From: Naegleria gruberi | Lineage: Eukaryota | NCBI GenBank assembly: GCA_000004985.1 | Contig: GG738852.1 | DNA: 64,000 nt | Direction: 5' to 3' (one strand) | Shown here: piece by piece, positions 9,001 through 46,331 of the stretch | How positions within the stretch are numbered: the stretch's first letter is position 1 | How the letters are laid out: each line of letters begins with the position of its first letter | The notes under the pieces: model-generated | What the model was told of the DNA's origin: nothing | Seen by the model: only the letters and a program-made list of their open reading frames with translations | The model's database searches: none | Translations under genes and position numbers: made by a program

Positions 9001-12000
9001 NNNNNNNNNNNNNNNNNNNNNNNNNNNNNNNNNNNNNNNNNNNNNNNNNNNNNNNNNNNNNNNNNNNNNNNNNNNNNNNNNNNNNNNNNNNNNNNNNNNN
9101 NNNNNNNNNNNNNNNNNNNNNNNNNNNNNNNNNNNNNNNNNNNNNNNNNNNNNNNNNNNNNNNNNNNNNNNNNNNNNNNNNNNNNNNNNNNNNNNNNNNN
9201 NNNNNNNNNNNNNNNNNNNNNNNNNNNNNNNNNNNNNNNNNNNNNNNNNNNNNNNNNNNNNNNNNNNNNNNNNNNNNNNNNNNNNNNNNNNNNNNNNNNN
9301 NNNNNNNNNNNNNNNNNNNNNNNNNNNNNNNNNNNNNNNNNNNNNNNNNNNNNNNNNNNNNNNNNNNNNNNNNNNNNNNNNNNNNNNNNNNNNNNNNNNN
9401 NNNNNNNNNNNNNNNNNNNNNNNNNNNNNNNNNNNNNNNNNNNNNNNNNNNNNNNNNNNNNNNNNNNNNNNNNNNNNNNNNNNNNNNNNNNNNNNNNNNN
9501 NNNNNNNNNNNNNNNNNNNNNNNNNNNNNNNNNNNNNNNNNNNNNNNNNNNNNNNNNNNNNNNNNNNNNNNNNNNNNNNNNNNNNNNNNNNNNNNNNNNN
9601 NNNNNNNNNNNNNNNNNNNNNNNNNNNNNNNNNNNNNNNNNNNNNNNNNNNNNNNNNNNNNNNNNNNNNNNNNNNNNNNNNNNNNNNNNNNNNNNNNNNN
9701 NNNNNNNNNNNNNNNNNNNNNNNNNNNNNNNNNNNNNNNNNNNNNNNNNNNNNNNNNNNNNNNNNNNNNNNNNNNNNNNNNNNNNNNNNNNNNNNNNNNN
9801 NNNNNNNNNNNNNNNNNNNNNNNNNNNNNNNNNNNNNNNNNNNNNNNNNNNNNNNNNNNNNNNNNNNNNNNNNNNNNNNNNNNNNNNNNNNNNNNNNNNN
9901 NNNNNNNNNNNNNNNNNNNNNNNNNNNNNNNNNNNNNNNNNNNNNNNNNNNNNNNNNNNNNNNNNNNNNNNNNNNNNNNNNNNNNNNNNNNNNNNNNNNN
10001 NNNNNNNNNNNNNNNNNNNNNNNNNNNNNNNNNNNNNNNNNNNNNNNNNNNNNNNNNNNNNNNNNNNNNNNNNNNNNNNNNNNNNNNNNNNNNNNNNNNN
10101 NNNNNNNNNNNNNNNNNNNNNNNNNNNNNNNNNNNNNNNNNNNNNNNNNNNNNNNNNNNNNNNNNNNNNNNNNNNNNNNNNNNNNNNNNNNNNNNNNNNN
10201 NNNNNNNNNNNNNNNNNNNNNNNNNNNNNNNNNNNNNNNNNNNNNNNNNNNNNNNNNNNNNNNNNNNNNNNNNNNNNNNNNNNNNNNNNNNNNNNNNNNN
10301 NNNNNNNNNNNNNNNNNNNNNNNNNNNNNNNNNNNNNNNNNNNNNNNNNNNNNNNNNNNNNNNNNNNNNNNNNNNNNNNNNNNNNNNNNNNNNNNNNNNN
10401 NNNNNNNNNNNNNNNNNNNNNNNNNNNNNNNNNNNNNNNNNNNNNNNNNNNNNNNNNNNNNNNNNNNNNNNNNNNNNNNNNNNNNNNNNNNNNNNNNNNN
10501 NNNNNNNNNNNNNNNNNNNNNNNNNNNNNNNNNNNNNNNNNNNNNNNNNNNNNNNNNNNNNNNNNNNNNNNNNNNNNNNNNNNNNNNNNNNNNNNNNNNN
10601 NNNNNNNNNNNNNNNNNNNNNNNNNNNNNNNNNNNNNNNNNNNNNNNNNNNNNNNNNNNNNNNNNNNNNNNNNNNNNNNNNNNNNNNNNNNNNNNNNNNN
10701 NNNNNNNNNNNNNNNNNNNNNNNNNNNNNNNNNNNNNNNNNNNNNNNNNNNNNNNNNNNNNNNNNNNNNNNNNNNNNNNNNNNNNNNNNNNNNNNNNNNN
10801 NNNNNNNNNNNNNNNNNNNNNNNNNNNNNNNNNNNNNNNNNNNNNNNNNNNNNNNNNNNNNNNNNNNNNNNNNNNNNNNNNNNNNNNNNNNNNNNNNNNN
10901 NNNNNNNNNNNNNNNNNNNNNNNNNNNNNNNNNNNNNNNNNNNNNNNNNNNNNNNNNNNNNNNNNNNNNNNNNNNNNNNNNNNNNNNNNNNNNNNNNNNN
11001 NNNNNNNNNNNNNNNNNNNNNNNNNNNNNNNNNNNNNNNNNNNNNNNNNNNNNNNNNNNNNNNNNNNNNNNNNNNNNNNNNNNNNNNNNNNNNNNNNNNN
11101 NNNNNNNNNNNNNNNNNNNNNNNNNNNNNNNNNNNNNNNNNNNNNNNNNNNNNNNNNNNNNNNNNNNNNNNNNNNNNNNNNNNNNNNNNNNNNNNNNNNN
11201 NNNNNNNNNNNNNNNNNNNNNNNNNNNNNNNNNNNNNNNNNNNNNNNNNNNNNNNNNNNNNNNNNNNNNNNNNNNNNNNNNNNNNNNNNNNNNNNNNNNN
11301 NNNNNNNNNNNNNNNNNNNNNNNNNNNNNNNNNNNNNNNNNNNNNNNNNNNNNNNNNNNNNNNNNNNNNNNNNNNNNNNNNNNNNNNNNNNNNNNNNNNN
11401 NNNNNNNNNNNNNNNNNNNNNNNNNNNNNNNNNNNNNNNNNNNNNNNNNNNNNNNNNNNNNNNNNNNNNNNNNNNNNNNNNNNNNNNNNNNNNNNNNNNN
11501 NNNNNNNNNNNNNNNNNNNNNNNNNNNNNNNNNNNNNNNNNNNNNNNNNNNNNNNNNNNNNNNNNNNNNNNNNNNNNNNNNNNNNNNNNNNNNNNNNNNN
11601 NNNNNNNNNNNNNNNNNNNNNNNNNNNNNNNNNNNNNNNNNNNNNNNNNNNNNNNNNNNNNNNNNNNNNNNNNNNNNNNNNNNNNNNNNNNNNNNNNNNN
11701 NNNNNNNNNNNNNNNNNNNNNNNNNNNNNNNNNNNNNNNNNNNNNNNNNNNNNNNNNNNNNNNNNNNNNNNNNNNNNNNNNNNNNNNNNNNNNNNNNNNN
11801 NNNNNNNNNNNNNNNNNNNNNNNNNNNNNNNNNNNNNNNNNNNNNNNNNNNNNNNNNNNNNNNNNNNNNNNNNNNNNNNNNNNNNNNNNNNNNNNNNNNN
11901 NNNNNNNNNNNNNNNNNNNNNNNNNNNNNNNNNNNNNNNNNNNNNNNNNNNNNNNNNNNNNNNNNNNNNNNNNNNNNNNNNNNNNNNNNNNNNNNNNNNN

Positions 12001-15000
12001 NNNNNNNNNNNNNNNNNNNNNNNNNNNNNNNNNNNNNNNNNNNNNNNNNNNNNNNNNNNNNNNNNNNNNNNNNNNNNNNNNNNNNNNNNNNNNNNNNNNN
12101 NNNNNNNNNNNNNNNNNNNNNNNNNNNNNNNNNNNNNNNNNNNNNNNNNNNNNNNNNNNNNNNNNNNNNNNNNNNNNNNNNNNNNNNNNNNNNNNNNNNN
12201 NNNNNNNNNNNNNNNNNNNNNNNNNNNNNNNNNNNNNNNNNNNNNNNNNNNNNNNNNNNNNNNNNNNNNNNNNNNNNNNNNNNNNNNNNNNNNNNNNNNN
12301 NNNNNNNNNNNNNNNNNNNNNNNNNNNNNNNNNNNNNNNNNNNNNNNNNNNNNNNNNNNNNNNNNNNNNNNNNNNNNNNNNNNNNNNNNNNNNNNNNNNN
12401 NNNNNNNNNNNNNNNNNNNNNNNNNNNNNNNNNNNNNNNNNNNNNNNNNNNNNNNNNNNNNNNNNNNNNNNNNNNNNNNNNNNNNNNNNNNNNNNNNNNN
12501 NNNNNNNNNNNNNNNNNNNNNNNNNNNNNNNNNNNNNNNNNNNNNNNNNNNNNNNNNNNNNNNNNNNNNNNNNNNNNNNNNNNNNNNNNNNNNNNNNNNN
12601 NNNNNNNNNNNNNNNNNNNNNNNNNNNNNNNNNNNNNNNNNNNNNNNNNNNNNNNNNNNNNNNNNNNNNNNNNNNNNNNNNNNNNNNNNNNNNNNNNNNN
12701 NNNNNNNNNNNNNNNNNNNNNNNNNNNNNNNNNNNNNNNNNNNNNNNNNNNNNNNNNNNNNNNNNNNNNNNNNNNNNNNNNNNNNNNNNNNNNNNNNNNN
12801 NNNNNNNNNNNNNNNNNNNNNNNNNNNNNNNNNNNNNNNNNNNNNNNNNNNNNNNNNNNNNNNNNNNNNNNNNNNNNNNNNNNNNNNNNNNNNNNNNNNN
12901 NNNNNNNNNNNNNNNNNNNNNNNNNNNNNNNNNNNNNNNNNNNNNNNNNNNNNNNNNNNNNNNNNNNNNNNNNNNNNNNNNNNNNNNNNNNNNNNNNNNN
13001 NNNNNNNNNNNNNNNNNNNNNNNNNNNNNNNNNNNNNNNNNNNNNNNNNNNNNNNNNNNNNNNNNNNNNNNNNNNNNNNNNNNNNNNNNNNNNNNNNNNN
13101 NNNNNNNNNNNNNNNNNNNNNNNNNNNNNNNNNNNNNNNNNNNNNNNNNNNNNNNNNNNNNNNNNNNNNNNNNNNNNNNNNNNNNNNNNNNNNNNNNNNN
13201 NNNNNNNNNNNNNNNNNNNNNNNNNNNNNNNNNNNNNNNNNNNNNNNNNNNNNNNNNNNNNNNNNNNNNNNNNNNNNNNNNNNNNNNNNNNNNNNNNNNN
13301 NNNNNNNNNNNNNNNNNNNNNNNNNNNNNNNNNNNNNNNNNNNNNNNNNNNNNNNNNNNNNNNNNNNNNNNNNNNNNNNNNNNNNNNNNNNNNNNNNNNN
13401 NNNNNNNNNNNNNNNNNNNNNNNNNNNNNNNNNNNNNNNNNNNNNNNNNNNNNNNNNNNNNNNNNNNNNNNNNNNNNNNNNNNNNNNNNNNNNNNNNNNN
13501 NNNNNNNNNNNNNNNNNNNNNNNNNNNNNNNNNNNNNNNNNNNNNNNNNNNNNNNNNNNNNNNNNNNNNNNNNNNNNNNNNNNNNNNNNNNNNNNNNNNN
13601 NNNNNNNNNNNNNNNNNNNNNNNNNNNNNNNNNNNNNNNNNNNNNNNNNNNNNNNNNNNNNNNNNNNNNNNNNNNNNNNNNNNNNNNNNNNNNNNNNNNN
13701 NNNNNNNNNNNNNNNNNNNNNNNNNNNNNNNNNNNNNNNNNNNNNNNNNNNNNNNNNNNNNNNNNNNNNNNNNNNNNNNNNNNNNNNNNNNNNNNNNNNN
13801 NNNNNNNNNNNNNNNNNNNNNNNNNNNNNNNNNNNNNNNNNNNNNNNNNNNNNNNNNNNNNNNNNNNNNNNNNNNNNNNNNNNNNNNNNNNNNNNNNNNN
13901 NNNNNNNNNNNNNNNNNNNNNNNNNNNNNNNNNNNNNNNNNNNNNNNNNNNNNNNNNNNNNNNNNNNNNNNNNNNNNNNNNNNNNNNNNNNNNNNNNNNN
14001 NNNNNNNNNNNNNNNNNNNNNNNNNNNNNNNNNNNNNNNNNNNNNNNNNNNNNNNNNNNNNNNNNNNNNNNNNNNNNNNNNNNNNNNNNNNNNNNNNNNN
14101 NNNNNNNNNNNNNNNNNNNNNNNNNNNNNNNNNNNNNNNNNNNNNNNNNNNNNNNNNNNNNNNNNNNNNNNNNNNNNNNNNNNNNNNNNNNNNNNNNNNN
14201 NNNNNNNNNNNNNNNNNNNNNNNNNNNNNNNNNNNNNNNNNNNNNNNNNNNNNNNNNNNNNNNNNNNNNNNNNNNNNNNNNNNNNNNNNNNNNNNNNNNN
14301 NNNNNNNNNNNNNNNNNNNNNNNNNNNNNNNNNNNNNNNNNNNNNNNNNNNNNNNNNNNNNNNNNNNNNNNNNNNNNNNNNNNNNNNNNNNNNNNNNNNN
14401 NNNNNNNNNNNNNNNNNNNNNNNNNNNNNNNNNNNNNNNNNNNNNNNNNNNNNNNNNNNNNNNNNNNNNNNNNNNNNNNNNNNNNNNNNNNNNNNNNNNN
14501 NNNNNNNNNNNNNNNNNNNNNNNNNNNNNNNNNNNNNNNNNNNNNNNNNNNNNNNNNNNNNNNNNNNNNNNNNNNNNNNNNNNNNNNNNNNNNNNNNNNN
14601 NNNNNNNNNNNNNNNNNNNNNNNNNNNNNNNNNNNNNNNNNNNNNNNNNNNNNNNNNNNNNNNNNNNNNNNNNNNNNNNNNNNNNNNNNNNNNNNNNNNN
14701 NNNNNNNNNNNNNNNNNNNNNNNNNNNNNNNNNNNNNNNNNNNNNNNNNNNNNNNNNNNNNNNNNNNNNNNNNNNNNNNNNNNNNNNNNNNNNNNNNNNN
14801 NNNNNNNNNNNNNNNNNNNNNNNNNNNNNNNNNNNNNNNNNNNNNNNNNNNNNNNNNNNNNNNNNNNNNNNNNNNNNNNNNNNNNNNNNNNNNNNNNNNN
14901 NNNNNNNNNNNNNNNNNNNNNNNNNNNNNNNNNNNNNNNNNNNNNNNNNNNNNNNNNNNNNNNNNNNNNNNNNNNNNNNNNNNNNNNNNNNNNNNNNNNN

Positions 15001-18000
15001 NNNNNNNNNNNNNNNNNNNNNNNNNNNNNNNNNNNNNNNNNNNNNNNNNNNNNNNNNNNNNNNNNNNNNNNNNNNNNNNNNNNNNNNNNNNNNNNNNNNN
15101 NNNNNNNNNNNNNNNNNNNNNNNNNNNNNNNNNNNNNNNNNNNNNNNNNNNNNNNNNNNNNNNNNNNNNNNNNNNNNNNNNNNNNNNNNNNNNNNNNNNN
15201 NNNNNNNNNNNNNNNNNNNNNNNNNNNNNNNNNNNNNNNNNNNNNNNNNNNNNNNNNNNNNNNNNNNNNNNNNNNNNNNNNNNNNNNNNNNNNNNNNNNN
15301 NNNNNNNNNNNNNNNNNNNNNNNNNNNNNNNNNNNNNNNNNNNNNNNNNNNNNNNNNNNNNNNNNNNNNNNNNNNNNNNNNNNNNNNNNNNNNNNNNNNN
15401 NNNNNNNNNNNNNNNNNNNNNNNNNNNNNNNNNNNNNNNNNNNNNNNNNNNNNNNNNNNNNNNNNNNNNNNNNNNNNNNNNNNNNNNNNNNNNNNNNNNN
15501 NNNNNNNNNNNNNNNNNNNNNNNNNNNNNNNNNNNNNNNNNNNNNNNNNNNNNNNNNNNNNNNNNNNNNNNNNNNNNNNNNNNNNNNNNNNNNNNNNNNN
15601 NNNNNNNNNNNNNNNNNNNNNNNNNNNNNNNNNNNNNNNNNNNNNNNNNNNNNNNNNNNNNNNNNNNNNNNNNNNNNNNNNNNNNNNNNNNNNNNNNNNN
15701 NNNNNNNNNNNNNNNNNNNNNNNNNNNNNNNNNNNNNNNNNNNNNNNNNNNNNNNNNNNNNNNNNNNNNNNNNNNNNNNNNNNNNNNNNNNNNNNNNNNN
15801 NNNNNNNNNNNNNNNNNNNNNNNNNNNNNNNNNNNNNNNNNNNNNNNNNNNNNNNNNNNNNNNNNNNNNNNNNNNNNNNNNNNNNNNNNNNNNNNNNNNN
15901 NNNNNNNNNNNNNNNNNNNNNNNNNNNNNNNNNNNNNNNNNNNNNNNNNNNNNNNNNNNNNNNNNNNNNNNNNNNNNNNNNNNNNNNNNNNNNNNNNNNN
16001 NNNNNNNNNNNNNNNNNNNNNNNNNNNNNNNNNNNNNNNNNNNNNNNNNNNNNNNNNNNNNNNNNNNNNNNNNNNNNNNNNNNNNNNNNNNNNNNNNNNN
16101 NNNNNNNNNNNNNNNNNNNNNNNNNNNNNNNNNNNNNNNNNNNNNNNNNNNNNNNNNNNNNNNNNNNNNNNNNNNNNNNNNNNNNNNNNNNNNNNNNNNN
16201 NNNNNNNNNNNNNNNNNNNNNNNNNNNNNNNNNNNNNNNNNNNNNNNNNNNNNNNNNNNNNNNNNNNNNNNNNNNNNNNNNNNNNNNNNNNNNNNNNNNN
16301 NNNNNNNNNNNNNNNNNNNNNNNNNNNNNNNNNNNNNNNNNNNNNNNNNNNNNNNNNNNNNNNNNNNNNNNNNNNNNNNNNNNNNNNNNNNNNNNNNNNN
16401 NNNNNNNNNNNNNNNNNNNNNNNNNNNNNNNNNNNNNNNNNNNNNNNNNNNNNNNNNNNNNNNNNNNNNNNNNNNNNNNNNNNNNNNNNNNNNNNNNNNN
16501 NNNNNNNNNNNNNNNNNNNNNNNNNNNNNNNNNNNNNNNNNNNNNNNNNNNNNNNNNNNNNNNNNNNNNNNNNNNNNNNNNNNNNNNNNNNNNNNNNNNN
16601 NNNNNNNNNNNNNNNNNNNNNNNNNNNNNNNNNNNNNNNNNNNNNNNNNNNNNNNNNNNNNNNNNNNNNNNNNNNNNNNNNNNNNNNNNNNNNNNNNNNN
16701 NNNNNNNNNNNNNNNNNNNNNNNNNNNNNNNNNNNNNNNNNNNNNNNNNNNNNNNNNNNNNNNNNNNNNNNNNNNNNNNNNNNNNNNNNNNNNNNNNNNN
16801 NNNNNNNNNNNNNNNNNNNNNNNNNNNNNNNNNNNNNNNNNNNNNNNNNNNNNNNNNNNNNNNNNNNNNNNNNNNNNNNNNNNNNNNNNNNNNNNNNNNN
16901 NNNNNNNNNNNNNNNNNNNNNNNNNNNNNNNNNNNNNNNNNNNNNNNNNNNNNNNNNNNNNNNNNNNNNNNNNNNNNNNNNNNNNNNNNNNNNNNNNNNN
17001 NNNNNNNNNNNNNNNNNNNNNNNNNNNNNNNNNNNNNNNNNNNNNNNNNNNNNNNNNNNNNNNNNNNNNNNNNNNNNNNNNNNNNNNNNNNNNNNNNNNN
17101 NNNNNNNNNNNNNNNNNNNNNNNNNNNNNNNNNNNNNNNNNNNNNNNNNNNNNNNNNNNNNNNNNNNNNNNNNNNNNNNNNNNNNNNNNNNNNNNNNNNN
17201 NNNNNNNNNNNNNNNNNNNNNNNNNNNNNNNNNNNNNNNNNNNNNNNNNNNNNNNNNNNNNNNNNNNNNNNNNNNNNNNNNNNNNNNNNNNNNNNNNNNN
17301 NNNNNNNNNNNNNNNNNNNNNNNNNNNNNNNNNNNNNNNNNNNNNNNNNNNNNNNNNNNNNNNNNNNNNNNNNNNNNNNNNNNNNNNNNNNNNNNNNNNN
17401 NNNNNNNNNNNNNNNNNNNNNNNNNNNNNNNNNNNNNNNNNNNNNNNNNNNNNNNNNNNNNNNNNNNNNNNNNNNNNNNNNNNNNNNNNNNNNNNNNNNN
17501 NNNNNNNNNNNNNNNNNNNNNNNNNNNNNNNNNNNNNNNNNNNNNNNNNNNNNNNNNNNNNNNNNNNNNNNNNNNNNNNNNNNNNNNNNNNNNNNNNNNN
17601 NNNNNNNNNNNNNNNNNNNNNNNNNNNNNNNNNNNNNNNNNNNNNNNNNNNNNNNNNNNNNNNNNNNNNNNNNNNNNNNNNNNNNNNNNNNNNNNNNNNN
17701 NNNNNNNNNNNNNNNNNNNNNNNNNNNNNNNNNNNNNNNNNNNNNNNNNNNNNNNNNNNNNNNNNNNNNNNNNNNNNNNNNNNNNNNNNNNNNNNNNNNN
17801 NNNNNNNNNNNNNNNNNNNNNNNNNNNNNNNNNNNNNNNNNNNNNNNNNNNNNNNNNNNNNNNNNNNNNNNNNNNNNNNNNNNNNNNNNNNNNNNNNNNN
17901 NNNNNNNNNNNNNNNNNNNNNNNNNNNNNNNNNNNNNNNNNNNNNNNNNNNNNNNNNNNNNNNNNNNNNNNNNNNNNNNNNNNNNNNNNNNNNNNNNNNN

Positions 18001-19199
18001 NNNNNNNNNNNNNNNNNNNNNNNNNNNNNNNNNNNNNNNNNNNNNNNNNNNNNNNNNNNNNNNNNNNNNNNNNNNNNNNNNNNNNNNNNNNNNNNNNNNN
18101 NNNNNNNNNNNNNNNNNNNNNNNNNNNNNNNNNNNNNNNNNNNNNNNNNNNNNNNNNNNNNNNNNNNNNNNNNNNNNNNNNNNNNNNNNNNNNNNNNNNN
18201 NNNNNNNNNNNNNNNNNNNNNNNNNNNNNNNNNNNNNNNNNNNNNNNNNNNNNNNNNNNNNNNNNNNNNNNNNNNNNNNNNNNNNNNNNNNNNNNNNNNN
18301 NNNNNNNNNNNNNNNNNNNNNNNNNNNNNNNNNNNNNNNNNNNNNNNNNNNNNNNNNNNNNNNNNNNNNNNNNNNNNNNNNNNNNNNNNNNNNNNNNNNN
18401 NNNNNNNNNNNNNNNNNNNNNNNNNNNNNNNNNNNNNNNNNNNNNNNNNNNNNNNNNNNNNNNNNNNNNNNNNNNNNNNNNNNNNNNNNNNNNNNNNNNN
18501 NNNNNNNNNNNNNNNNNNNNNNNNNNNNNNNNNNNNNNNNNNNNNNNNNNNNNNNNNNNNNNNNNNNNNNNNNNNNNNNNNNNNNNNNNNNNNNNNNNNN
18601 NNNNNNNNNNNNNNNNNNNNNNNNNNNNNNNNNNNNNNNNNNNNNNNNNNNNNNNNNNNNNNNNNNNNNNNNNNNNNNNNNNNNNNNNNNNNNNNNNNNN
18701 NNNNNNNNNNNNNNNNNNNNNNNNNNNNNNNNNNNNNNNNNNNNNNNNNNNNNNNNNNNNNNNNNNNNNNNNNNNNNNNNNNNNNNNNNNNNNNNNNNNN
18801 NNNNNNNNNNNNNNNNNNNNNNNNNNNNNNNNNNNNNNNNNNNNNNNNNNNNNNNNNNNNNNNNNNNNNNNNNNNNNNNNNNNNNNNNNNNNNNNNNNNN
18901 NNNNNNNNNNNNNNNNNNNNNNNNNNNNNNNNNNNNNNNNNNNNNNNNNNNNNNNNNNNNNNNNNNNNNNNNNNNNNNNNNNNNNNNNNNNNNNNNNNNN
19001 NNNNNNNNNNNNNNNNNNNNNNNNNNNNNNNNNNNNNNNNNNNNNNNNNNNNNNNNNNNNNNNNNNNNNNNNNNNNNNNNNNNNNNNNNNNNNNNNNNNN
19101 NNNNNNNNNNNNNNNNNNNNNNNNNNNNNNNNNNNNNNNNNNNNNNNNNNNNNNNNNNNNNNNNNNNNNNNNNNNNNNNNNNNNNNNNNNNNNNNNNNN
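1..19199. other. Assembly gap (run of N)
   Basis: All positions are n; no sequence information. Confidence 0.99.
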
Positions 19200-22357: not shown

Positions 22358-24216
22358 ATGAGAAAACGTGGTGATTCATCACCTACCACATCGGAATATT
22401 CTGATGTTACGAACCAACAGGAACAAATCACAACCTCATCATCACCAAGAATAGTACTCGAAGAGATTAATAATGATCACATAATTGTTGGGAATTATCA
22501 TCATCAATCTTCAAAGATATTTGCCAAAGTGGTAAAATTGGAACAATTGGTAAAACAAATTCATCAGAACAAGTATTATATTAAACGTATTAAATTTGTG
22601 AAAGATCAAAGTGAAGAAATAGTTTTAAATGAAAATGAAAAGGAACAATTTACTGATTTGTTGAACAAATTGAGAAGATTGATTCTTTCATCACCCGATC
22701 GTGAATCACTAGAAGAAAATGAAACTACTTTGGGTTGCATTAAAGATTCACTCAGGCAACACGTATGGCCTCTTCTACTTCATGATCCAGATCACTTGTG
22801 TAAGGATAAACAAACAGTATTTCACTTGACCAAGAAACTTGACAAGACTCACGAGCAGTATGAACAAGTGGAAAAGGATGTGGAGAGATCTCTTTTCAAG
22901 TTCTTAGCTCCATTCTTTGGAAGATATAACAAATCTATAGTCTATGTAAATACCTCGAATGCAAGCAGTACTAGTAATCTCTCTGGAGGAGTTTCGAAAA
23001 ATGTGGGTTCAAAAACAATGAATCTCGAACTCAATTACAAGAGAAAAAACCTTAGTCTTGTTGTCAACTCTATATTACAAACTGAAAAGAAATTAAAACA
23101 AAACGAAATTTTGGATGAGGAATCACCGGAGAAGTTGGCAGAAAAAGTTGGTCAATTATATTATTTTCAAGGCTTTCACGAGATTTGCTCAGTACTCTTA
23201 TTAACCTTCCAAGATTCTCTAGAGACAACTTTTAGATGTAGTTATAGACTTGCTATGAATCATTTTCATGATGCTATGCATTCTCTACATTTGGATGCCA
23301 TTATGAAAAAGTGTAGAATGATTATTAAAATTTTGGAAAAGGATGGGCACGACGATATTTGCCAAGTATTGAGGAAGAGTGATATGGATCAAGGACACTA
23401 TGCACTCAGTTGGATCTTGACATGGTTTGCTCATGTCATTGATCAAGACTGCCACGATAAGGAGGATGAAACAGAAACAGTAAGCACTTCCAGCAAAATT
23501 TTGAACGAAAATTGTAAGTATTTATTTTTACATCTTTAGATATATTCAAGATATTCTTTTTAATTTATTTATTTTGATATGTTTTGAAATTAATAGCAAT
23601 CATGCCAACACTTTTCATTGTGCAGACCCTGTTTGATGTCTTCCTTGCTGTTGGTAATCCAATGTTTGTAGTTTATGTAGCAGCCAGTGTTGTAATTGAA
23701 AGAAAGGAAGAATTATTAATCCTAAGAAATGGAGGATCTGTAGCAAGTGTGAGAGAAAAGTTATCTGCAGCATCTGGAGGTAGAACTGAAGTTGACTTCC
23801 CGTTCTCTGCAGACGAAGATGAGGAAAATTTGAACTATGTGGAATTTACTGTAGTATTTGGATTATTAAACAGATTCCCTAAAAATGTTACTCTGAGGTG
23901 GATTGAACGTGTCATTGGAAGGGCTCTCTCAATGTGGAAAGAGCACGACTATAGATCATTATTTGCTACAGAAATTCCAAACGATTCATTCCCATTCCCA
24001 TACATGAAAGAATGCGAACATTTAACAGAAAATTCTCCACCAGACTATTGGAGAGATGAGGAGGAGGAAAGATTGATACAGGAAGCCAAGAGGAAGGCTG
24101 CATCAAAGCATTCAGTAGTACCAGCAACTACCCTCATTGTAGGTGGTATTGCTTTGGCTATAGCAGTTTATATTTCTGCTCAATCATGGTTTTTTCAGTC
24201 GATACCCTTTAAATAG
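22358..24216 (+). CDS. TBC-domain Rab GTPase-activating protein, TBC1D20/Gyp8-like, with a C-terminal transmembrane anchor; 2 exons (about 22358-23513 and 23597-24216)
   Basis: Arg-finger motif VEKDVERSLF (IxxDxxR) and Gln-finger YYFQGFHEI (YxQ). The TBC domain continues in the downstream track ORF (MPTLFIVQTLFDVFLA...). A GTAAGT donor at about 23514 and an aatag acceptor at about 23596 join the frames (T+CA=Ser). Hydrophobic tail IVGGIALAIAVYISAQSWF. First ATG is at 22358; the track start 22349 is TTG. Confidence 0.7.
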
Positions 24217-28480: not shown

Positions 28481-29257
28481 TTACAAACTAGAGATGACAG
28501 AATCAATAACCTTTTCAAAAGTAGCATCACTTTCAGCAGCAATTGAACAAAATTCAATATTAACTGGAATGTTTCTGAATGTACTCCATCCTTCAAAAGT
28601 GAATTCCTTAGATTCAATCAATGGATTTGGTGCTGAGCTTGCATCTTCATCAATAGATTGATGTTGGTGTTTCTTAGTATTGTGAATAGTAATTAATTCC
28701 TTTTCAAGATCTCTCTTAATTTGATTCTTTACATAGAATGAAATATCGGACTTGTTGAAAATAATTGTAATTGCTGGTTTGACTTCATCTGTCAATTTTC
28801 TATCAGTCAAAATATCATATAAAAATCTATATATTTCAGAAAGAAAATAATCTCATTTCTAGTTATATTAAACTTACTCAGCATTTGCAGAAATATCCAA
28901 TTCAGAAGAGTCCAAAACATAAATCAATTGTTTGGTAATTGGTAAATATTCATTGATCAATTGTTTTCTAACTCTGGTAGAACCAGGAATATCAACAACC
29001 TCAATTTCCTTATCAAAGCTCTTATTTCCGAACTTGATTTTTGGAACAAACTTGGCATAATTTTCCTTTACGCTAGTGTGGCTTTGCACAATTTTTCCAT
29101 CCTTCAATTTAAAAAACAAGCATGTTTTTCCTGACTGACACAATCCGGTAATCATCAATGCATTTCCTTTCTTTGTACTCTTTCCCTTCAAAAAGATAAA
29201 AGCAATTGCTACAATCACCAACAATCCGATAATTGCAGTGAGAAGTGTTGCGTCCAT
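28481..29257 (-). CDS. SRPRB: Signal recognition particle receptor beta subunit (SR-beta); 2 exons (29257-28878 and 28826-28481) with a 51-nt intron
   Basis: N-terminal TM anchor (LLTAIIGLLVIVAIAFIFL), G1 motif ITGLCQSGKT, switch II DIPGSTRVR, G4 motif NKSD in the downstream exon. GTAAGT donor overlaps the apparent stop of the upstream track ORF. An atatatag acceptor restores the frame (GA+A=Glu). Confidence 0.75.
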
Positions 29258-29443
29258 TTTTTTTTAATCTATTTTTTATTTGTGTTCAAAGCTTCAAATA
29301 AGTTGTTCTTTGAAAGTGACGTCAATCTTTAGAAATGGTTGAAATTTTGAAACTCTGAATTATTTAATTTAATAAATTTAAAACAATTGATGACGAGTAA
29401 CAAAAGAGAGGAGTGTAAAAGTGAGCACCTAATGTTTGAAAAG

Positions 29444-29455
29444 TAGCGCCAAATT
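29444..29455 (+). promoter_or_regulatory. E2F-like site TAGCGCCAAAT, about 70 bp upstream of the first ATG of the cyclin-like gene
   Basis: GCGCCAAA core (reverse complement of TTTGGCGC). Confidence 0.4.
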
Positions 29456-29519
29456 TTCAAATTTTAAGGTTGAAAAAAATAGGTTGAGTGAGTTATTAAG
29501 TATTGAGAATAAAGGCTTG

Positions 29520-30377
29520 ATGGAAATAGTAACGGTATCTGATTTATCACTTTCCGAAGTGAAGGAAACAATGATTCAACAATGGAACAAACAATATACT
29601 CTGTGGGTTGAGTTTTGCTCTGTGTTTCTTTCCAAGAATACTAAAGTCACCGAATACATTTTACAGTTGTGCAGGAAGAATATTAAATGTAAAAATCCCT
29701 TAATTCATTATCATTCATTATTGATGATGTTTAAGGTATTGAAAAAGTGAGTACATCTAGAATTTCGATTTGTTCAAATGGCCACATTCTTCTTTAGAAA
29801 TTTGACAGAATATGATCCAACCCTCCTCGGATCAACATGTATCAATGTCCAGAGTAAGAGATTTGGAGAGGAAGGAATAGCTTTGGAATCAATTTTAAAT
29901 ACGACCAATAAGTATAGAAGAAAGCATAATTTGAATGAATTGACTGAAGAGAGCGTTAGAGAGTATGAAGTTCAAATTCTTGAAATAATAGAATATGAAA
30001 TCAATACAATATCATTGTTTGATTTTGTAGAGTTGCTCACTGGTTGTGTGTACGACTTGTCTTGCCCTCAAGTTATTCCCTTTGTGAAGGAGAAGTTTAT
30101 AGCGATGGCTTCAAAGCTTTACGATTACTTGTTATTTAAACCAGGTTTCTTGTCTCTCCAAAGAGATCCATGTTTGTTTGCAAGTACATTGATCTTTCTT
30201 TCCTCCAAGATTATAACCTCAAAGAGAAATGAGGCACTCCTGTCATGGCGTAAGTAATTTGTAATCAACTTTCTTAATATTTTGTTTGTCTACGGCTCAG
30301 TTTCTCATTTGTGTGAATGCGAAGTAAAAACAATCGAACAACTTGCTAATGAAATAGAACAACTCATTAAAGATTAA
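29520..30377 (+). CDS. Cyclin-fold-like hypothetical protein; 3 exons (about 29520-29746, 29798-30249, 30301-30377) with two 51-nt introns
   Basis: Track ORFs 29436..29750 and 29778..30257 share one frame and are separated by a single TGA. A GTGAGT donor at 29747 and a tctttag acceptor at 29796-97 remove the TGA and keep the frame (AA+A=Lys, then NLTEYDPT). A second GTAAGT donor overlaps the terminal TAA, and a ggctcag acceptor 51 nt later adds a 25-codon tail. LWVEFCSVFLS resembles the cyclin-box WLVEV motif. Confidence 0.45.
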
Positions 30378-30577: not shown

Positions 30578-31481
30578 ATGGTAGGTTTTCTCATCAAGAT
30601 TTTGACAATCTAAAACAATATCTAATGCTAATGATGGTGATCATCAACATTCAATATATTGCGATAATCTAATATTAATAACAATAATACTATCATCATC
30701 ATGTTGATGTTAATATTTTTTATTTATTTCATGATGGATTTACAACAACAATAATAACAACTATTTGATGACGTGATGATTACCATAATATTACTGTGGC
30801 TAAACATTCTCTGCTATTTGTTATATTATAGACTACAACTGCTCAACCATACTACGATTGTATCCGTAAATCCCTCGAAGCTGCTTTGTGTCTTGAAAAC
30901 TTCCCATCTCAAGTCATTGAAAGACACAACAAGCCAGAAGTTGAAGTTGGGTACGTGTTAAAGAGTATTTCTAATCATTATTAACAAACCTATTCTACTC
31001 GTTATTTGACAATATATGTTGTGAAATTGTCAATTTGTGGATTAATGATGGCTCATTGTAATACACTTTGGATTTTAATGATATTCAACTAAACAGTACA
31101 AGCAGGGAATTGTTGCTCAACCCAATCATTATCAGCAAGGATAAATTTGATCGTTGCATGATTGAAGGATCAGTCAACTCTGTCAGAATCAGTCTTTCAT
31201 TCAAGAAGAACGACGATGTTGAAAGAATTATCTATAAGCGTTTTATGCACTTTTTGATGCAAAGAGCTGAACAATTCTTAGTTATGAGAAGAAAGCCAGT
31301 CGAAGGATATGATATCAGTTTCCTTGTTACCAACTTCCACATTGAAGATATGTTCAAGCAAAAGTTGATTGATTTCATTATTGGATTCATTGAAGACATT
31401 AACAAGGACATTAACAACATGAAGTTGCAATCAAGTGCTCGTGCTCGTGCTGTTGCCAAGAAGTATCTCGGAGCTTACTAA
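30578..31481 (+). CDS. ARPC4: Arp2/3 complex subunit 4 (ARPC4/Arc19); 3 exons (30578-30580 ATG only, about 30832-30950, about 31097-31481)
   Basis: Exon 3 matches ARPC4 nearly end to end ([56 protein letters not shown]). Exon 2 encodes [40 protein letters not shown], matching human MTATLRPYL...[25 protein letters not shown]|gtaggt donor; gtacgt donor for intron 2; an actaaac branch-like element before the acag acceptor. Confidence 0.85.
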
Positions 31482-31709
31482 ATTATTTAGTGTCAACCAC
31501 CTGTCTGACACAACTTGTAACATTTTAATTAAATTATTTATACATCATACACTTGTAAAATCATTATTTCTCATTCAGTAACTTGTAATTATTCACTATG
31601 ACATTTTGCCACTACTTCGTTTCTGGAAAGGAACATTCAGCTCCACTAGTCTATTATTATCAAAATTGCTGAATCATAACAACAAAAAAATACACTGAAC
31701 ATCATAACA

Positions 31710-32285
31710 ATGCCACCAAAGAAGAATAACAATCCTTCTCTCAACAAGGTCTCAAACAAGACCATTACTGTCGGAAATGTGCAAGGAGAACTTGTATTTA
31801 ATGGTGGATATCTCGGATTGAAGGGTGATCTTGTGGAAAGATGTTTGGACAATTTTCAGGATCAAATCAATGAACACTGTCCAAGCGAATATAAGAAAAA
31901 GAAGGATGACAGAGACAAGACTTCACATCATCACATTACTCTCATGTTAAAGCAAGATATCAAGAAGGCAACTGAATCTCTTAAAGATTCTTATCCATCT
32001 TTGTTACCAGCTGATATTTCTGCTGAAAATGTTACTGTTCAACACTTGTTGGATGCAATGGCAAAGGAAATTGATTTTTCAGAAATTACAGCACTAGGTG
32101 TTGGTAAACAAAAGAAGGCAGCAAATGAAACAGTATATATTGTTGTGGAATGGCCAAGCGCTTCTCACTTTTTGAAAAATGTTAATGCTGACACTAGAGA
32201 TTTCCATATAACTTTAGGATTTAAGGATACAGATATTCATGGAGTTGCAAAAAATAGAATGACATTAGTAAAAAAATCAGAATAA
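31710..32285 (+). CDS. Putative 2H phosphoesterase-superfamily protein (two H-phi-T-phi motifs); hypothetical
   Basis: 191-aa ORF. SHHHITLM near residue 75 and FHITLGF near residue 165, spacing typical of 2H/CPDase-like enzymes. Inference only. Confidence 0.4.
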   Translation: MPPKKNNNPSLNKVSNKTITVGNVQGELVFNGGYLGLKGDLVERCLDNFQDQINEHCPSEYKKKKDDRDKTSHHHITLMLKQDIKKATESLKDSYPSLLPADISAENVTVQHLLDAMAKEIDFSEITALGVGKQKKAANETVYIVVEWPSASHFLKNVNADTRDFHITLGFKDTDIHGVAKNRMTLVKKSE

Positions 32286-32286
32286 T

Positions 32287-34026
32287 TTAATATTGAGGAG
32301 CATAGGTGTTTGATTTTTGCATTTGACTTGGTCTTGAATTGTCGTCATCGTGTCTCTTTCGTTTGTTCTTATCATTTGATCGTGAACCAGAGTGTTTGGA
32401 AGTTTGAGTATTTGGTAATCTCCATTCTTGTAAACATTGATCTCTAATCTTGTTTTGCTTTTCTTGTATTTCCAAATATTTATCTTCAACAGCATTCTTA
32501 ATTCTTTGGAGTGAATTGATTTGAGATTTGGCAATCACAGTATTTGTATCACTCAAATACTTGTTAAACATTTCATCCTTCTCAATGACATTGCAATCGA
32601 CCAATGATTTGATATTTTCACGGTTGGATAATCTAATATTAACGTCAAACAGATAATTTACAATTTGTGGTTGACGTTTTCTTAATCCCTTACAAATGAC
32701 GTATCTTTCAGAGTTGGCAGGTCTAGATGAGAGTGGCTTTACAATCATTACTTTTTCATAATTTTGGTAAAGAATGTACATGAGAGAGGCAGAGAACCAA
32801 GTATTCAAGTCAAACAATTTACAAACAAAAGAACCACCTCTTCTAGTAATCATCAATCCTGTCAAAATTTGACATAATACCAATTGATGAGTGAGGTATT
32901 CTTGAGAATTTTCAACACCATGAACAGAGAAACCACCATCTGCAGTTACAAGAGCAACACCTCTTCCATTAGTTCCTTGGTCAATAGCCTTACTTAGAGC
33001 ACGAATATTTTCATTCTTAGTTATATCACCTGTTCCATCTTCACCATAGTTGACTTCAAAATTGTCATGAGGTGATTCTGGATTGAATCTATTTAATTTC
33101 CAGTCATCTTTCTTATTTTTCAAAGTAAATCCCCAACCCTTAGCTTTATCTGTCTTGAATCTATAATAGAGGTATTCTGTAAAACCTCCAGGTCCAGCAC
33201 AAATATCTGCAAAATAGAGAATACCATTTTCTTCAGGTAATCTGACAAGAGTTGTCAAGTCAGAAATTCTATCAATATTTGCCAATTTAATGGCAGCTCT
33301 ATTTTGGAAAATAGATCTACCAATTCTTTCATATGGATTCGATCTATATCTAGCATCAGTAAATATTTTTTCATCTACAGAATCGAATTGTGATTTCAAA
33401 TCAAAAATTTGTTGAACTTGTTGAACATTAACAAACGGAGATAAATTTCCTTCAACATATTTTTGTCCATTATTATTCATTGAAGCTGATAAATCCAATG
33501 TTGTATTATCAGGTCTTACAATGGAAAACTCTGGTGCATTTTCACTTAATGGTTCAATACAAGTCATCCACGATACATCTTCCTTGTATGGATAATCTGT
33601 CATATCAGGGTCATGTGTTTGAATAGTAAAATGTTCAGGAAGATTTGATGAATAATGAGCAGAAGTATTTGATCCTAAACCTGCTCTTCCTTGTTGTTGT
33701 TGTAATTCAATAGCACTTGCACTTCCTTGATTATTCTTTCCTAAACCTTCTCCAACTTTAAAACCCATCTTTTCCATCATCATCAATACTTTTTGTGAAG
33801 CATTCTTCTTGACCATACTAGTAAATGGATTAGAAATGTGTGATTTTGCAGAAACACGTTCAAAATCAGGATCGTTAGAAAATATATCATGATGATAATT
33901 AGATTCTTCTCCGGAATTATCATACATGGAATTATCTTCTTCTTGATGATCATCATCGTCCTCATCATTGTCGACAAGAGGATTAGAACGTGATGGTGCA
34001 TACATTGATTGCATTGGATCAAACAT
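32287..34026 (-). CDS. Cap-specific mRNA (nucleoside-2'-O-)-methyltransferase, CMTR1-like: G-patch plus RrmJ/FtsJ-type methyltransferase, lacking guanylyltransferase-like and WW domains
   Basis: G-patch MEKMGFKVGEGLGKNNQGSASAIELQQQQGRAGLG. SAM motif FADICAGPGGFTEYL. K-D-K-E tetrad candidates RAAIKLANID / ALVTADGGFSV / VCKLFD / SERYVICKG. Acidic poly-D N-terminus. 579 aa. Confidence 0.75.
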   Translation of the reverse strand: MFDPMQSMYAPSRSNPLVDNDEDDDDHQEEDNSMYDNSGEESNYHHDIFSNDPDFERVSAKSHISNPFTSMVKKNASQKVLMMMEKMGFKVGEGLGKNNQGSASAIELQQQQGRAGLGSNTSAHYSSNLPEHFTIQTHDPDMTDYPYKEDVSWMTCIEPLSENAPEFSIVRPDNTTLDLSASMNNNGQKYVEGNLSPFVNVQQVQQIFDLKSQFDSVDEKIFTDARYRSNPYERIGRSIFQNRAAIKLANIDRISDLTTLVRLPEENGILYFADICAGPGGFTEYLYYRFKTDKAKGWGFTLKNKKDDWKLNRFNPESPHDNFEVNYGEDGTGDITKNENIRALSKAIDQGTNGRGVALVTADGGFSVHGVENSQEYLTHQLVLCQILTGLMITRRGGSFVCKLFDLNTWFSASLMYILYQNYEKVMIVKPLSSRPANSERYVICKGLRKRQPQIVNYLFDVNIRLSNRENIKSLVDCNVIEKDEMFNKYLSDTNTVIAKSQINSLQRIKNAVEDKYLEIQEKQNKIRDQCLQEWRLPNTQTSKHSGSRSNDKNKRKRHDDDNSRPSQMQKSNTYAPQY

Positions 34027-45022: not shown

Positions 45023-46331
45023 CTACTTTTGAATATTCAGCGTTTTGCTGGATACAAACGGAATAGTAGAATTATCAAAAACACCCGACCTTGATTCGGT
45101 AGGTTTGAAAGGGTAACTTAATTGTTTTTCCTTTGCATCTTTTCTTGTGATGGATCTAACTGGATCAATAAACTTCTCAGAGGCAAGAATAGTCTCTACA
45201 GGAATAACATCCTTCTTTTTCTTACATGGTACATAATTCTTTTTGGAGACTAGAGTAATTAGTTTCAATGTTGTTATTGTTATTCATTAGGTTAATTAAG
45301 CATTACTTACTTCTTGTATCTTTTTCAATCATATTCTCAAACCTAATGACTTCCTTATCTGTATCGTATTTACAAGAGTTTTGAATTGATCTTTCATAAG
45401 TCTTTTCTTTGATTGATACAACCTCTTCTGGTGGTTTGAAAGGGCCATGTCTTTTATCCTTATATCTCATTTTGTCCTTATCATTAATCGGTGGTAGAGG
45501 TTTATCCCTTTCTTGAAGATTTCCTTTAATTTGATCTGGATACAGGTAGGCAAGGGATGGATGTGTTTTCAGTTCCGAATTGTTGGATCTCATCAGAGTT
45601 GAATTTACAGGAACAACCTTCTTATTTTGAAGACTGTTAATATATTCAGTTTTTGCAACGTATCTCAATTGGTCTTCTACTGGAATTCCATATACAGTAT
45701 CCTCGGAAATATATCTATGATTTGGTTTGTAAACACCAGGAATGGCCTTTGTACTGACAAGGTGATGAAGGGACTTTGAATATTCTTGAAATTTTTCGTA
45801 GTCTTTCTTTTCCTTTTCATCTTGCATTTCCTCAGTTCTTTGTTGCTTGTATTGTTGTACATATTCGTTTGTGAGAGAACTTTGATGTTCAACAAAGGCC
45901 AAATACTCCTTTCTCTTATAATAATTATGTACATATTTTCTCACCCAAAATCCTCTGAATATCCTTTGAATTTGAGCTGCACAATAGTGATAGAGTTGAA
46001 TTCGCTCCTGTTTTTCTCGTTCCTCTTGCAGAAGTCTTTTCAATTTCCTTCCATAAAGATGTCCTCTAAATACTCTCTGAATTGTAATTACTTTATGTCT
46101 GAATTTAAGGAATGCACTTCTTACAATCCATCTTCTGTATGTTTTTTGAATTGAGAGCGCAGCCTTGTTTTCCTTATCTCTATTTGATTCCGCCTCCCTT
46201 TAAAATTTGTCAATTAATTATTCAATCCAATTTATATAATGATCGTACCTTCTGGCTTGAAAGAAACTCTCCATCACAATATCGGGAGAGAGTTCTAAGA
46301 AGATTTTAGGTCTATTTGTTCCTACAGACAT
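45023..46331 (-). CDS. IQ calmodulin-binding motif protein; 3 exons (46331-46249, about 46197-45311, about 45249-45023) with 51-nt and 61-nt introns
   Basis: Three IQ motifs (ALSIQKTYRRWIVRSAF, VITIQRVFRGHLYGRK, AAQIQRIFRGFWVRKY). Track ORF 45303..46043 starts at TTG with the frame open upstream. Exon 1 is ATG..AGAAG|gtacga, acceptor ttttaaag. GTAAGT donor overlaps the TAA at 45303, and a ctctag acceptor joins to track ORF 45023..45268 in phase (A+TC=Ile). Confidence 0.6.

What the first reader, a model, noticed from the sequence alone, without database searches (positions are those of the whole stretch)
29436..30377. Apparent in-frame TGA between two ORFs is removed by a 51-nt intron; the gene has two 51-nt introns and a cyclin-like fold
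Track ORFs 29436..29750 and 29778..30257 are in the same frame, separated only by a TGA at 29748-29750 plus 27 nt. A GTGAGT donor begins at 29747 and a tctttAG acceptor ends at 29797, exactly 51 nt apart. Splicing keeps the frame (AA+A=Lys, then NLTEYDPT) and skips both the TGA and the internal ATG. The terminal TAA of the second ORF is itself inside a GTAAGT donor (30250). A ggctcAG acceptor 51 nt later opens a 25-codon final exon (LSHLCECEVKTIEQLANEIEQLIKD*). Two independent exact 51-nt introns match the 51-nt introns of SR-beta and the IQ gene and argue for a real spliced gene rather than readthrough or pseudogenisation
Basis: seen in the sequence. Interest (0 to 1): 0.5.

Follow-up and report, generated by a model that had tools for sequence, protein, structure and literature searches.

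The report
Mis-annotated three-exon cyclin-like gene
The apparent stop codon between two reading frames sits in an ordinary short intron of a Naegleria gruberi gene for a very divergent cyclin-like protein, so this is a correction to a truncated public gene model and not new biology.

Summary
GTGAGT starts at 29747 and an AG ends at 29797. GTAAGT starts at 30250 and an AG ends at 30300. Both intervals are 51 nt, and removing them joins three reading frames in phase.

The window is Naegleria gruberi. The public model (NAEGRDRAFT_63911, 159 aa) is the middle ORF alone.

Relatives in N. fowleri, Willaertia magna and two environmental contigs all carry GT-AG introns at these two places. The phases match (2 and 1) but the lengths differ: 42-98 nt for the first intron and 34-136 nt for the second. 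Several of those lengths are not multiples of three, so readthrough is impossible in those relatives. The spliced proteins (241-251 aa where the contig is complete) align end to end, with a conserved W|LSH[LI] motif across junction 2.

The real start is the conserved ATG at 29520 (MEI...), giving 251 aa, not about 284.

Four of the eight introns I could support in the window are exactly 51 nt. No transcript data could be reached. This is an ordinary result of low interest.

The parts
29258..29519 (.). Intergenic region between the divergently oriented SR-beta gene (start codon at 29257, minus strand) and the cyclin-like gene. It presumably holds a shared promoter and the 5' UTR. It includes the in-frame but non-coding ORF extension 29436-29519.
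   Evidence: ORF list. GC is 26%. The first ATG at 29520 matches the MEI/MDI N-termini of the relatives. SR-beta lies divergently upstream in N. fowleri as well.
29520..29746 (+). Exon 1: the ATG plus 75 complete codons and 2 bases. It encodes MEIVTV...FKVLK plus two bases of a Lys codon.
   Evidence: It aligns end to end (residues 1-75 to profile positions 1-72) with a profile of the four relatives, at 43 bits and E 1.6e-15. It is absent from the public 159-aa model.
29747..29797 (+). Intron 1: 51 nt, GTGAGT...TCTTTAG, phase 2. It contains the in-frame TGA (29748-29750) and the ATG (29778) that the public model uses as its start.
   Evidence: Same-phase introns lie at the same place, within one codon, in N. 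fowleri (98 nt), W. magna (42 nt), and the environmental contigs L004 (51 nt) and L005 (44 nt).
29798..30249 (+). Exon 2: 452 nt, residues 76-227 counting the split codons. It holds the second half of the first cyclin box and the C-terminal helical half.
   Evidence: Identical to the body of XP_002680738.1. phmmer finds four relatives at E 1e-13 to 4e-7.
30250..30300 (+). Intron 2: 51 nt, GTAAGT...GGCTCAG, phase 1. If it is retained, the frame ends at TAA 30255-30257.
   Evidence: A phase-1 intron lies at the identical alignment column, the Leu after an invariant Trp, in all four relatives (136, 42, 34 and 47 nt).
30301..30377 (+). Exon 3: 77 nt, encoding (L)SHLCECEVKTIEQLANEIEQLIKD and the stop codon TAA at 30375-30377.
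   Evidence: The junction motif is W|LSHL here, W|LSHI in N. fowleri and L005, W|LSSI in L004 and W|LGNI in W. magna. Sequence similarity of the exon alone is weak: 3.9 bits, although at the correct profile positions 223-243.

Best explanation
This is one protein-coding gene of Naegleria gruberi with three exons (29520-29746, 29798-30249, 30301-30377). It is interrupted by two ordinary U2-type GT-AG introns of 51 nt each. The spliceosome removes both, which takes out the TGA, the internal ATG and the TAA. The result is a 756-nt coding sequence for a 251-residue all-helical protein.

The protein is a very divergent member of the cyclin-box superfamily. Its first cyclin box (about residues 40-145) is split by intron 1 between the second and third helices. 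ORF2 alone, which is the public 159-aa model NAEGRDRAFT_63911, is therefore a truncated domain.

The family keeps the Lys/Glu pair that contacts the kinase in canonical cyclins, so the most likely role is as a CDK partner.

Shown here: the splice signals, restoration of the frame, conservation of intron position and phase, collinearity of the proteins, and the cyclin-box homology of the orthologues.
Inferred: that splicing actually happens in N. gruberi RNA, and that the protein binds a CDK.
For: - Sequence and frame.
- Identity of the window: the middle ORF is 100% identical to XP_002680738.1 / D2V4U6 of N. gruberi.
- Orthologues: N. fowleri FDP41_000311 (locus L001, with SR-beta divergently upstream as in the window) and W. 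magna ABK040_001734 (L002), plus environmental contigs L004 and L005.
- Intron maps: intron 1 is 51/98/42/51/44 nt, always phase 2. Intron 2 is 51/136/42/34/47 nt, always phase 1 and at the same column. The lengths 98, 136, 34, 44 and 47 are not multiples of three, so only splicing keeps the frame there.
- Three-exon proteins of 251, 246, 249 and 241 aa are collinear.
- Exon 1 scores 43 bits (E 1.6e-15) against a profile of the relatives.
- Cyclin: Pfam Cyclin_N scores 23.9 bits (N. fowleri, residues 40-140) and 27.0 bits (W. magna, residues 47-141), both spanning junction 1. The spliced N. gruberi protein scores 12.5 bits over residues 43-145. ORF2 alone gives no hit.
- A profile of the five proteins against PDB lists cyclin D1/D3 first (E 0.03-0.15). 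Family-invariant K96 and E133 align with cyclin D1 K112 and E141.
- Local intron habit: four of eight supported introns in the window are exactly 51 nt. The SR-beta one is confirmed by a single SRPRB match of 93 bits across the junction.
Against: - No RNA evidence was available. The exact spliced product is not among 15 billion public proteins, and the exact junction strings are absent from the metagenome collection.
- The N. gruberi protein on its own fails the Pfam Cyclin_N cut-off (12.5 against 23 bits).
- The W. magna model has low overall confidence (pLDDT 59, with 70-87 only over residues 31-135), so a second cyclin box is not demonstrated.
- Exon 3 alone has negligible sequence similarity to the relatives (3.9 bits).
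- In the MAFFT alignment, intron 1 of N. gruberi lies one codon upstream of the other four.
- CDK binding is inference only.
Confidence: 0.88

Rival explanations
1. The public model is right. ORF2 alone (ATG 29778 to TAA 30257, 159 aa) is the gene, and the upstream ORF and the downstream 25 codons are non-coding or belong to something else.
For: This is the only N. gruberi product on record. An ATG and a stop are present.
Against: - The first 7 residues (MATFFFR) and the last 2 (RK) of that model are translated intron and have no counterpart in the relatives.
- Exon 1 is clearly homologous to the N-termini of the orthologues (E 1.6e-15).
- The Cyclin_N match of the orthologues starts about 35 residues upstream of junction 1, so ORF2 alone begins in the middle of the domain and gives no Pfam hit.
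Confidence: 0.03
2. The TGA at 29748 is read through or recoded (Sec, Trp or a suppressor), giving one unspliced protein with a 17-residue insert.
For: Intron 1 is a multiple of three and has no other in-frame stop, so readthrough would keep the frame.
Against: - The N. fowleri intron at this position is 98 nt and the L005 one is 44 nt, which shift the frame. The W. magna one has an in-frame TAA.
- The 17 inserted residues are not conserved.
- TGA, TAA and TAG all behave as stops in the neighbouring homology-supported genes.
- Readthrough cannot rescue the second site, where exon 3 continues only after 51 nt that hold stops in all three frames.
Confidence: 0.01
3. The locus is a decaying pseudogene, and the stops are disabling mutations that happen to resemble splice sites.
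For: The N. gruberi protein is the most divergent member and scores lowest against Cyclin_N.
Against: - Both stops fall exactly in consensus donors, at positions where all relatives have introns.
- There are no other stops or frameshifts in 756 nt.
- The invariant residues of the family are all kept (20 invariant columns).
Confidence: 0.02
4. The introns are real but are partly retained on purpose. Retaining either one ends translation early (76 aa or 228 aa), so splicing efficiency would tune the level of the cyclin. This does not exclude the main explanation.
For: Each intron brings an in-frame stop immediately after the donor. Intron retention is reported as the dominant form of alternative splicing across eukaryotes including N. 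gruberi (PMC6142364).
Against: There is no expression data for this gene. An early in-frame stop is the common state of short introns and needs no special explanation.
Confidence: 0.12

Closest known systems
Short U2-type (GT-AG) spliceosomal introns of Naegleria and other Heterolobosea
   Same: - GTRAGT donors, YAG acceptors and a length in the short class.
- Position and phase are conserved between genera.
- Neighbouring genes in the window have the same kind of intron: SR-beta 51 nt, IQ 51 and 61 nt, TBC 83 nt, ARPC4 146 and 251 nt.
   Different: Nothing unusual. The only oddity is that both introns, and two more nearby, are exactly 51 nt. That fits a sharp minimum-length class and not a special mechanism.
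N. fowleri FDP41_000311 (XP_044569125.1, 'Cyclin N-terminal domain-containing protein') and Willaertia magna ABK040_001734 (KAL9650678.1)
   Same: - Orthologues at 25-30% identity over the full length.
- Same three-exon structure and same N-terminus (MEI...).
- The same divergent SR-beta neighbour in N. fowleri.
   Different: - The N. gruberi copy is more divergent and falls below the Pfam threshold.
- The public N. fowleri model reads through intron 2. The W. magna model adds an extra terminal intron. The N. gruberi model lacks exons 1 and 3.
Canonical cyclins (Pfam PF00134 Cyclin_N; for example cyclin D1, B1, A2, F, H)
   Same: - An all-helical cyclin-box fold.
- The E-x-x-[IV]-L-x-x-L-x-[FY] helix-5 motif.
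- Invariant Lys and Glu aligned with cyclin D1 K112 and E141. That these are the kinase-contact residues, equivalent to cyclin A K266 and E295, is from my own knowledge and was not tested here.
   Different: - Sequence similarity is at the detection limit: phmmer of exon 2 against 1.84 billion representatives finds no canonical cyclin at E <= 0.001.
- The protein is short (251 aa) and has no long N-terminal regulatory region.
- The family was seen only in Naegleria, Willaertia and two environmental contigs.
- No subfamily could be assigned. A second cyclin box was not confidently modelled.

Membership tests
U2-type GT-AG spliceosomal intron | 5' splice site GT with an extended GTRAGT-like consensus | tested here: met
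   GTGAGT at 29747 and GTAAGT at 30250.
U2-type GT-AG spliceosomal intron | 3' splice site AG, preceded by a pyrimidine | tested here: met
   tctttAG ends at 29797 and ggctcAG ends at 30300.
U2-type GT-AG spliceosomal intron | Removal restores one continuous reading frame whose product is homologous to relatives across the junction | tested here: met
   The 756-nt CDS gives a 251-aa product collinear with four relatives. Exon 1 scores 43 bits and exon 2 scores 102 bits against their profile. The W|LSH[LI] motif spans junction 2.
U2-type GT-AG spliceosomal intron | Intron position and phase shared with orthologues while intron sequence and length are free to vary | tested here: met
   Intron 2 is at an identical column and is phase 1 in all five sequences. 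Intron 1 is phase 2 in all five, with N. gruberi one codon off in an indel-rich stretch. Lengths range from 34 to 136 nt.
U2-type GT-AG spliceosomal intron | Spliced junction observed in RNA | not testable with these tools
   The spliced product is not among the public proteins and the junction strings are absent from the metagenome contigs. N. gruberi RNA-seq exists (PRJEB23822, cited in PMC6142364) but cannot be reached from here.
U2-type GT-AG spliceosomal intron | Recognisable branch-point motif upstream of the acceptor | not tested
   I only looked by eye. A CTTAAT is present in intron 2, and nothing clear in intron 1. No N. gruberi branch-point model was available.
Cyclin (Pfam PF00134 Cyclin_N / cyclin-box superfamily) | Match to the Cyclin_N profile at or above the curated cut-off (23 bits) | tested here: inconclusive
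   The spliced N. gruberi protein scores 12.5 bits (E 0.12), below the cut-off, and ORF2 alone gives no hit. The orthologues score 23.9 bits (N. fowleri) and 27.0 bits (W. magna), above the cut-off. Membership of the N. gruberi protein rests on transitive homology.
Cyclin (Pfam PF00134 Cyclin_N / cyclin-box superfamily) | Five-helix cyclin-box fold | tested here: met
Cyclin (Pfam PF00134 Cyclin_N / cyclin-box superfamily) | Conserved Lys and Glu of the first cyclin box that contact the CDK | tested here: met
   K96 and E133 are invariant in the five-sequence family. In the profile-to-PDB alignment they pair with cyclin D1 K112 and E141. Their role in kinase contact is from my own knowledge.
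Cyclin (Pfam PF00134 Cyclin_N / cyclin-box superfamily) | Second (C-terminal) cyclin box | tested here: inconclusive
   Five helices are predicted in residues 142-226 of the W. magna model, but at pLDDT below 50. There is no Cyclin_C Pfam hit.
Cyclin (Pfam PF00134 Cyclin_N / cyclin-box superfamily) | Binds and activates a cyclin-dependent kinase; periodic expression or regulated destruction | not testable with these tools
   This needs biochemistry or expression data.

The most novel reading that the evidence does not exclude
The gene belongs to a cyclin-box family confined to Heterolobosea (Naegleria, Willaertia and uncultured relatives). The family is so diverged that no canonical cyclin is detectable by sequence search. 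It could be a lineage-specific cyclin subfamily with its own kinase partner, or a cyclin-box protein that has left CDK regulation altogether. It has been overlooked in N. gruberi because the public model is truncated.
Probability: 0.35. Interest if true: 0.25.

Novelty: new member of a known kind. Interest (0 to 1): 0.14.

Why it matters
The practical value is a corrected gene model. NAEGRDRAFT_63911 should be a 251-aa three-exon protein, not a 159-aa fragment. The N. fowleri and W. magna models also need repair at their 3' ends.

The correction adds one divergent cyclin-like protein to the Naegleria cell-cycle inventory, where cyclin-CDK pairing is still undefined (PMC13556005). It also illustrates that very short introns carrying in-frame stops are easy for gene callers to miss in this genome. 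It does not change any concept.

Tried and rejected
- The spliced 251-aa protein could not be submitted to the search of protein representatives or structure prediction. I used exon 2 and the orthologues instead.
- phmmer of the spliced protein against PDB gave no hit.
- A word-indexed search with the spliced protein and with the family profile returned only N. gruberi ORF2 and the W. magna protein.
- The look-up of encoding contigs for P0001 returned 'not on record'.
- An alignment that included the exon-1 peptide as a separate row was misaligned by MAFFT and discarded.
- Exact searches for the two spliced junctions in metagenome contigs found nothing.
- The N. gruberi genome paper is not held, and no paper mentions the gene identifiers. 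The only genome-wide figure I obtained is a mean intron length of 203 bp (PMC8296547), which says nothing about the mode.
- My first expectation for donor hexamers was wrong because it included the run of N. Recomputed, GT[AG]AGT is not enriched in the window: 24 observed against 33.6 +/- 6.2 expected. The argument therefore rests on where the donors sit, not on how many there are.
- Considered and rejected: TGA recoding, a pseudogene, and two separate genes (see the rival explanations).

Full report
**Observation.** The window is N from 1 to 19199. The real sequence is 19200-64000, with 33.6% GC. In it, ORFs 29436..29750 and 29778..30257 share a frame and are separated by a TGA at 29748-29750.

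GTGAGT starts at 29747 and an AG ends at 29797. GTAAGT starts at 30250 and an AG ends at 30300. Both intervals are 51 nt. Removing them joins 29520-29746, 29798-30249 and 30301-30377 into 756 nt with no internal stop. The split codons are AA|A (Lys) and C|TT (Leu).

The in-frame TAA that ends ORF2 (30255-30257) only overlaps the last base of the donor hexamer. The ORF boundary at 29436 is a TTG after a stop. The first ATG is at 29520, so the product is 251 aa, not about 284.

**Chance.** GT[AG]AGT is not over-represented in the window: 24 sites on both strands against 33.6 +/- 6.2 in first-order Markov simulations. What is non-random is where the sites sit. Four of the 49 open stretches of at least 100 codons end within 6 nt of such a hexamer. 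These are the two here, SR-beta and the IQ gene. Simulations give 0.69 such cases per roughly 95 ORFs.

**Identity of the locus.** ORF2 is identical to XP_002680738.1 / EFC47994.1 / D2V4U6, 'predicted protein' NAEGRDRAFT_63911 of Naegleria gruberi, 159 aa. The public model is therefore the middle ORF alone. It starts at an ATG inside the proposed intron 1 and stops in the proposed intron 2. Neither the spliced 251-aa sequence nor the exon-1 peptide is in the 15-billion-protein collection. No paper mentions the identifiers.

**Relatives.** phmmer of exon 2 against 1.84 billion representatives found only four real relatives, at E 1e-13 to 4e-7:
- N. fowleri FDP41_000311 (233 aa, named 'Cyclin N-terminal domain-containing protein' in UniRef);
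- Willaertia magna ABK040_001734 (231 aa);
- two environmental ORFs.

Their DNA was fetched as L001, L002, L004 (with L003 a second copy) and L005. In N. fowleri the SR-beta gene lies divergently upstream, as it does in the window.

**Intron comparison.** I rebuilt three-exon models by script.

| Sequence | Intron 1 (nt) | Intron 2 (nt) |
|---|---|---|
| N. gruberi | 51 | 51 |
| N. fowleri | 98 | 136 |
| W. magna | 42 | 42 |
| L004 | 51 | 34 |
| L005 | 44 | 47 |

- Intron 1 is phase 2 in all five sequences. It follows the ...[FY]K[VY][LM]K motif.
- Intron 2 is phase 1 in all five. It splits the Leu codon after an invariant Trp, at the identical alignment column.
- The junction motif across intron 2 is W|LSHL, W|LSHI, W|LGNI, W|LSSI and W|LSHI.
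- In the MAFFT alignment, intron 1 of N. gruberi sits one codon upstream of the other four. It is next to an indel-rich stretch, so I treat this as the same position within alignment uncertainty.
- Several of the lengths (98, 136, 34, 44, 47) are not multiples of three. In those species only splicing keeps the frame, which rules out readthrough as the ancestral mechanism.
- The three-exon proteins are 251, 246, 249 and 241 aa. L005 is cut at its 5' end. All are collinear from the conserved MEI/MDI start to the C-terminus, with 20 invariant columns.
- Against a profile of the four relatives, N. gruberi exon 1 scores 43 bits (E 1.6e-15, residues 1-75 on profile positions 1-72). Exon 2 scores 102 bits. 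Exon 3 scores only 3.9 bits, but at the right place.

Support for exon 3 therefore comes mainly from the conserved intron and the junction motif, not from similarity of the exon itself.

**Cyclin question.** Pfam results:
- The spliced N. gruberi protein matches Cyclin_N weakly (12.5 bits, E 0.12, residues 43-145, which cross junction 1).
- ORF2 alone gives no match.
- The spliced orthologues pass the curated cut-off of 23 bits. N. fowleri scores 23.9 bits over residues 40-140 and W. magna scores 27.0 bits over residues 47-141. Both matches cross junction 1.

A profile of the five spliced proteins against PDB lists cyclin D1 and D3 first (E 0.03-0.15), then cyclin Y. An earlier profile listed cyclin H first. 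In the cyclin D1 alignment, the family-invariant K96 and E133 pair with D1 K112 and E141. From my own knowledge these correspond to the kinase-contact Lys and Glu of cyclin A.

**Local intron habit.** I could support eight introns in the window by homology or by ORF joining.

| Gene | Coordinates | Strand | Length (nt) | Support |
|---|---|---|---|---|
| SR-beta | 28827-28877 | minus | 51 | joined protein gives one SRPRB match of 93 bits against 52 bits for exon 1 alone |
| cyclin-like, intron 1 | 29747-29797 | plus | 51 | see above |
| cyclin-like, intron 2 | 30250-30300 | plus | 51 | see above |
| IQ gene | 46198-46248 | minus | 51 | joined protein gives three IQ motifs, 38 bits |
| IQ gene | 45250-45310 | minus | 61 | same calls |
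| TBC/RabGAP | 23514-23596 | plus | 83 | |
| ARPC4 | 30951-31096 | plus | 146 | full-length ARPC4 match 1-165/167, 262 bits |
| ARPC4 | 30581-30831 | plus | 251 | follows an ATG-only first exon; same calls |

Four of the eight are exactly 51 nt. The published mean of 203 bp for the genome (PMC8296547) does not speak to the mode.

**What it is.** This is an ordinary spliced gene with two short U2-type introns, encoding a very divergent cyclin-box protein. Its relatives were seen only in Naegleria, Willaertia and two environmental contigs. The rivals are each contradicted by the comparative data: ORF2 as a stand-alone gene, TGA recoding, and a pseudogene. Partial intron retention as a regulatory layer cannot be excluded, but nothing points to it.

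**What is missing.** There is no direct RNA evidence. The exact junction strings are absent from the metagenome collection.

**Verdict.** In kind this is a gene-model correction plus a new, divergent member of a known superfamily. Interest is low.

Noticed in passing
window 1-19199: The first 19,199 bases of the window are N. Only 19200-64000 is real sequence, with 33.6% GC. Composition statistics taken over the whole window are misleading.
   Followed up: yes
L001:3760-3895 (N. fowleri VFQX01000002.1): The public N. fowleri model FDP41_000311 reads through intron 2 and ends ...WCKYWERKIISVIE*. Splicing a 136-nt GTAAGT...AATAG intron instead gives W|LSHITGEDDDVIQEHTKELFKLLVED*, which matches the other species. 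The corrected protein is 246 aa.
   Followed up: yes
L002:3749-3835 (W. magna JBEGDK010000079.1): The public W. magna model ABK040_001734 appears to splice an extra small intron near the 3' end (...MSNV*). Reading straight on gives ...MSVEEIEKKGNDLYDRMFNKEK*, which aligns with exon 3 of N. gruberi. The corrected protein is 249 aa.
   Followed up: partly
window 30578-31484 (+): The ARPC4 gene has a first exon consisting of the ATG alone (30578-30580). It is followed by a 251-nt intron (GTAGGT...TATAG) and then a 146-nt intron (30951-31096). The three-exon protein of 168 aa covers Pfam ARPC4 positions 1-165 of 167, at 262 bits.
   Followed up: yes
window 45250-46331 (-): The IQ-motif gene has two introns. 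One is 51 nt with a GTACGA donor (46198-46248) and the other is 61 nt (45250-45310).
   Followed up: yes
L004:1561-1594: In the environmental relative (JGI metagenome 3300002220), the only intron 2 that restores the conserved W|LSSIC... continuation is 34 nt long. That is unusually short for a spliceosomal intron. I did not check it further.
   Followed up: no
window 19200-64000: The strong donor hexamers GTAAGT and GTGAGT are somewhat rarer than a first-order Markov model predicts (24 against 33.6 +/- 6.2). This could reflect avoidance of cryptic donors in this gene-dense sequence.
   Followed up: no
window 31710-32285 (+) and 32287-34026 (-): The downstream neighbours are a 2H phosphoesterase domain protein and a G-patch plus FtsJ methyltransferase protein. 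The downstream gene order differs from N. fowleri and W. magna, where a Pcf11-like CID protein follows the cyclin-like gene.
   Followed up: partly
window 51315-51380 (-): The LRR-protein gene (51944 downwards) has a GTAAGT donor at 51380. Several in-frame acceptors are possible, giving introns of 39, 54 or 66 nt. I did not work out which one is used.
   Followed up: no
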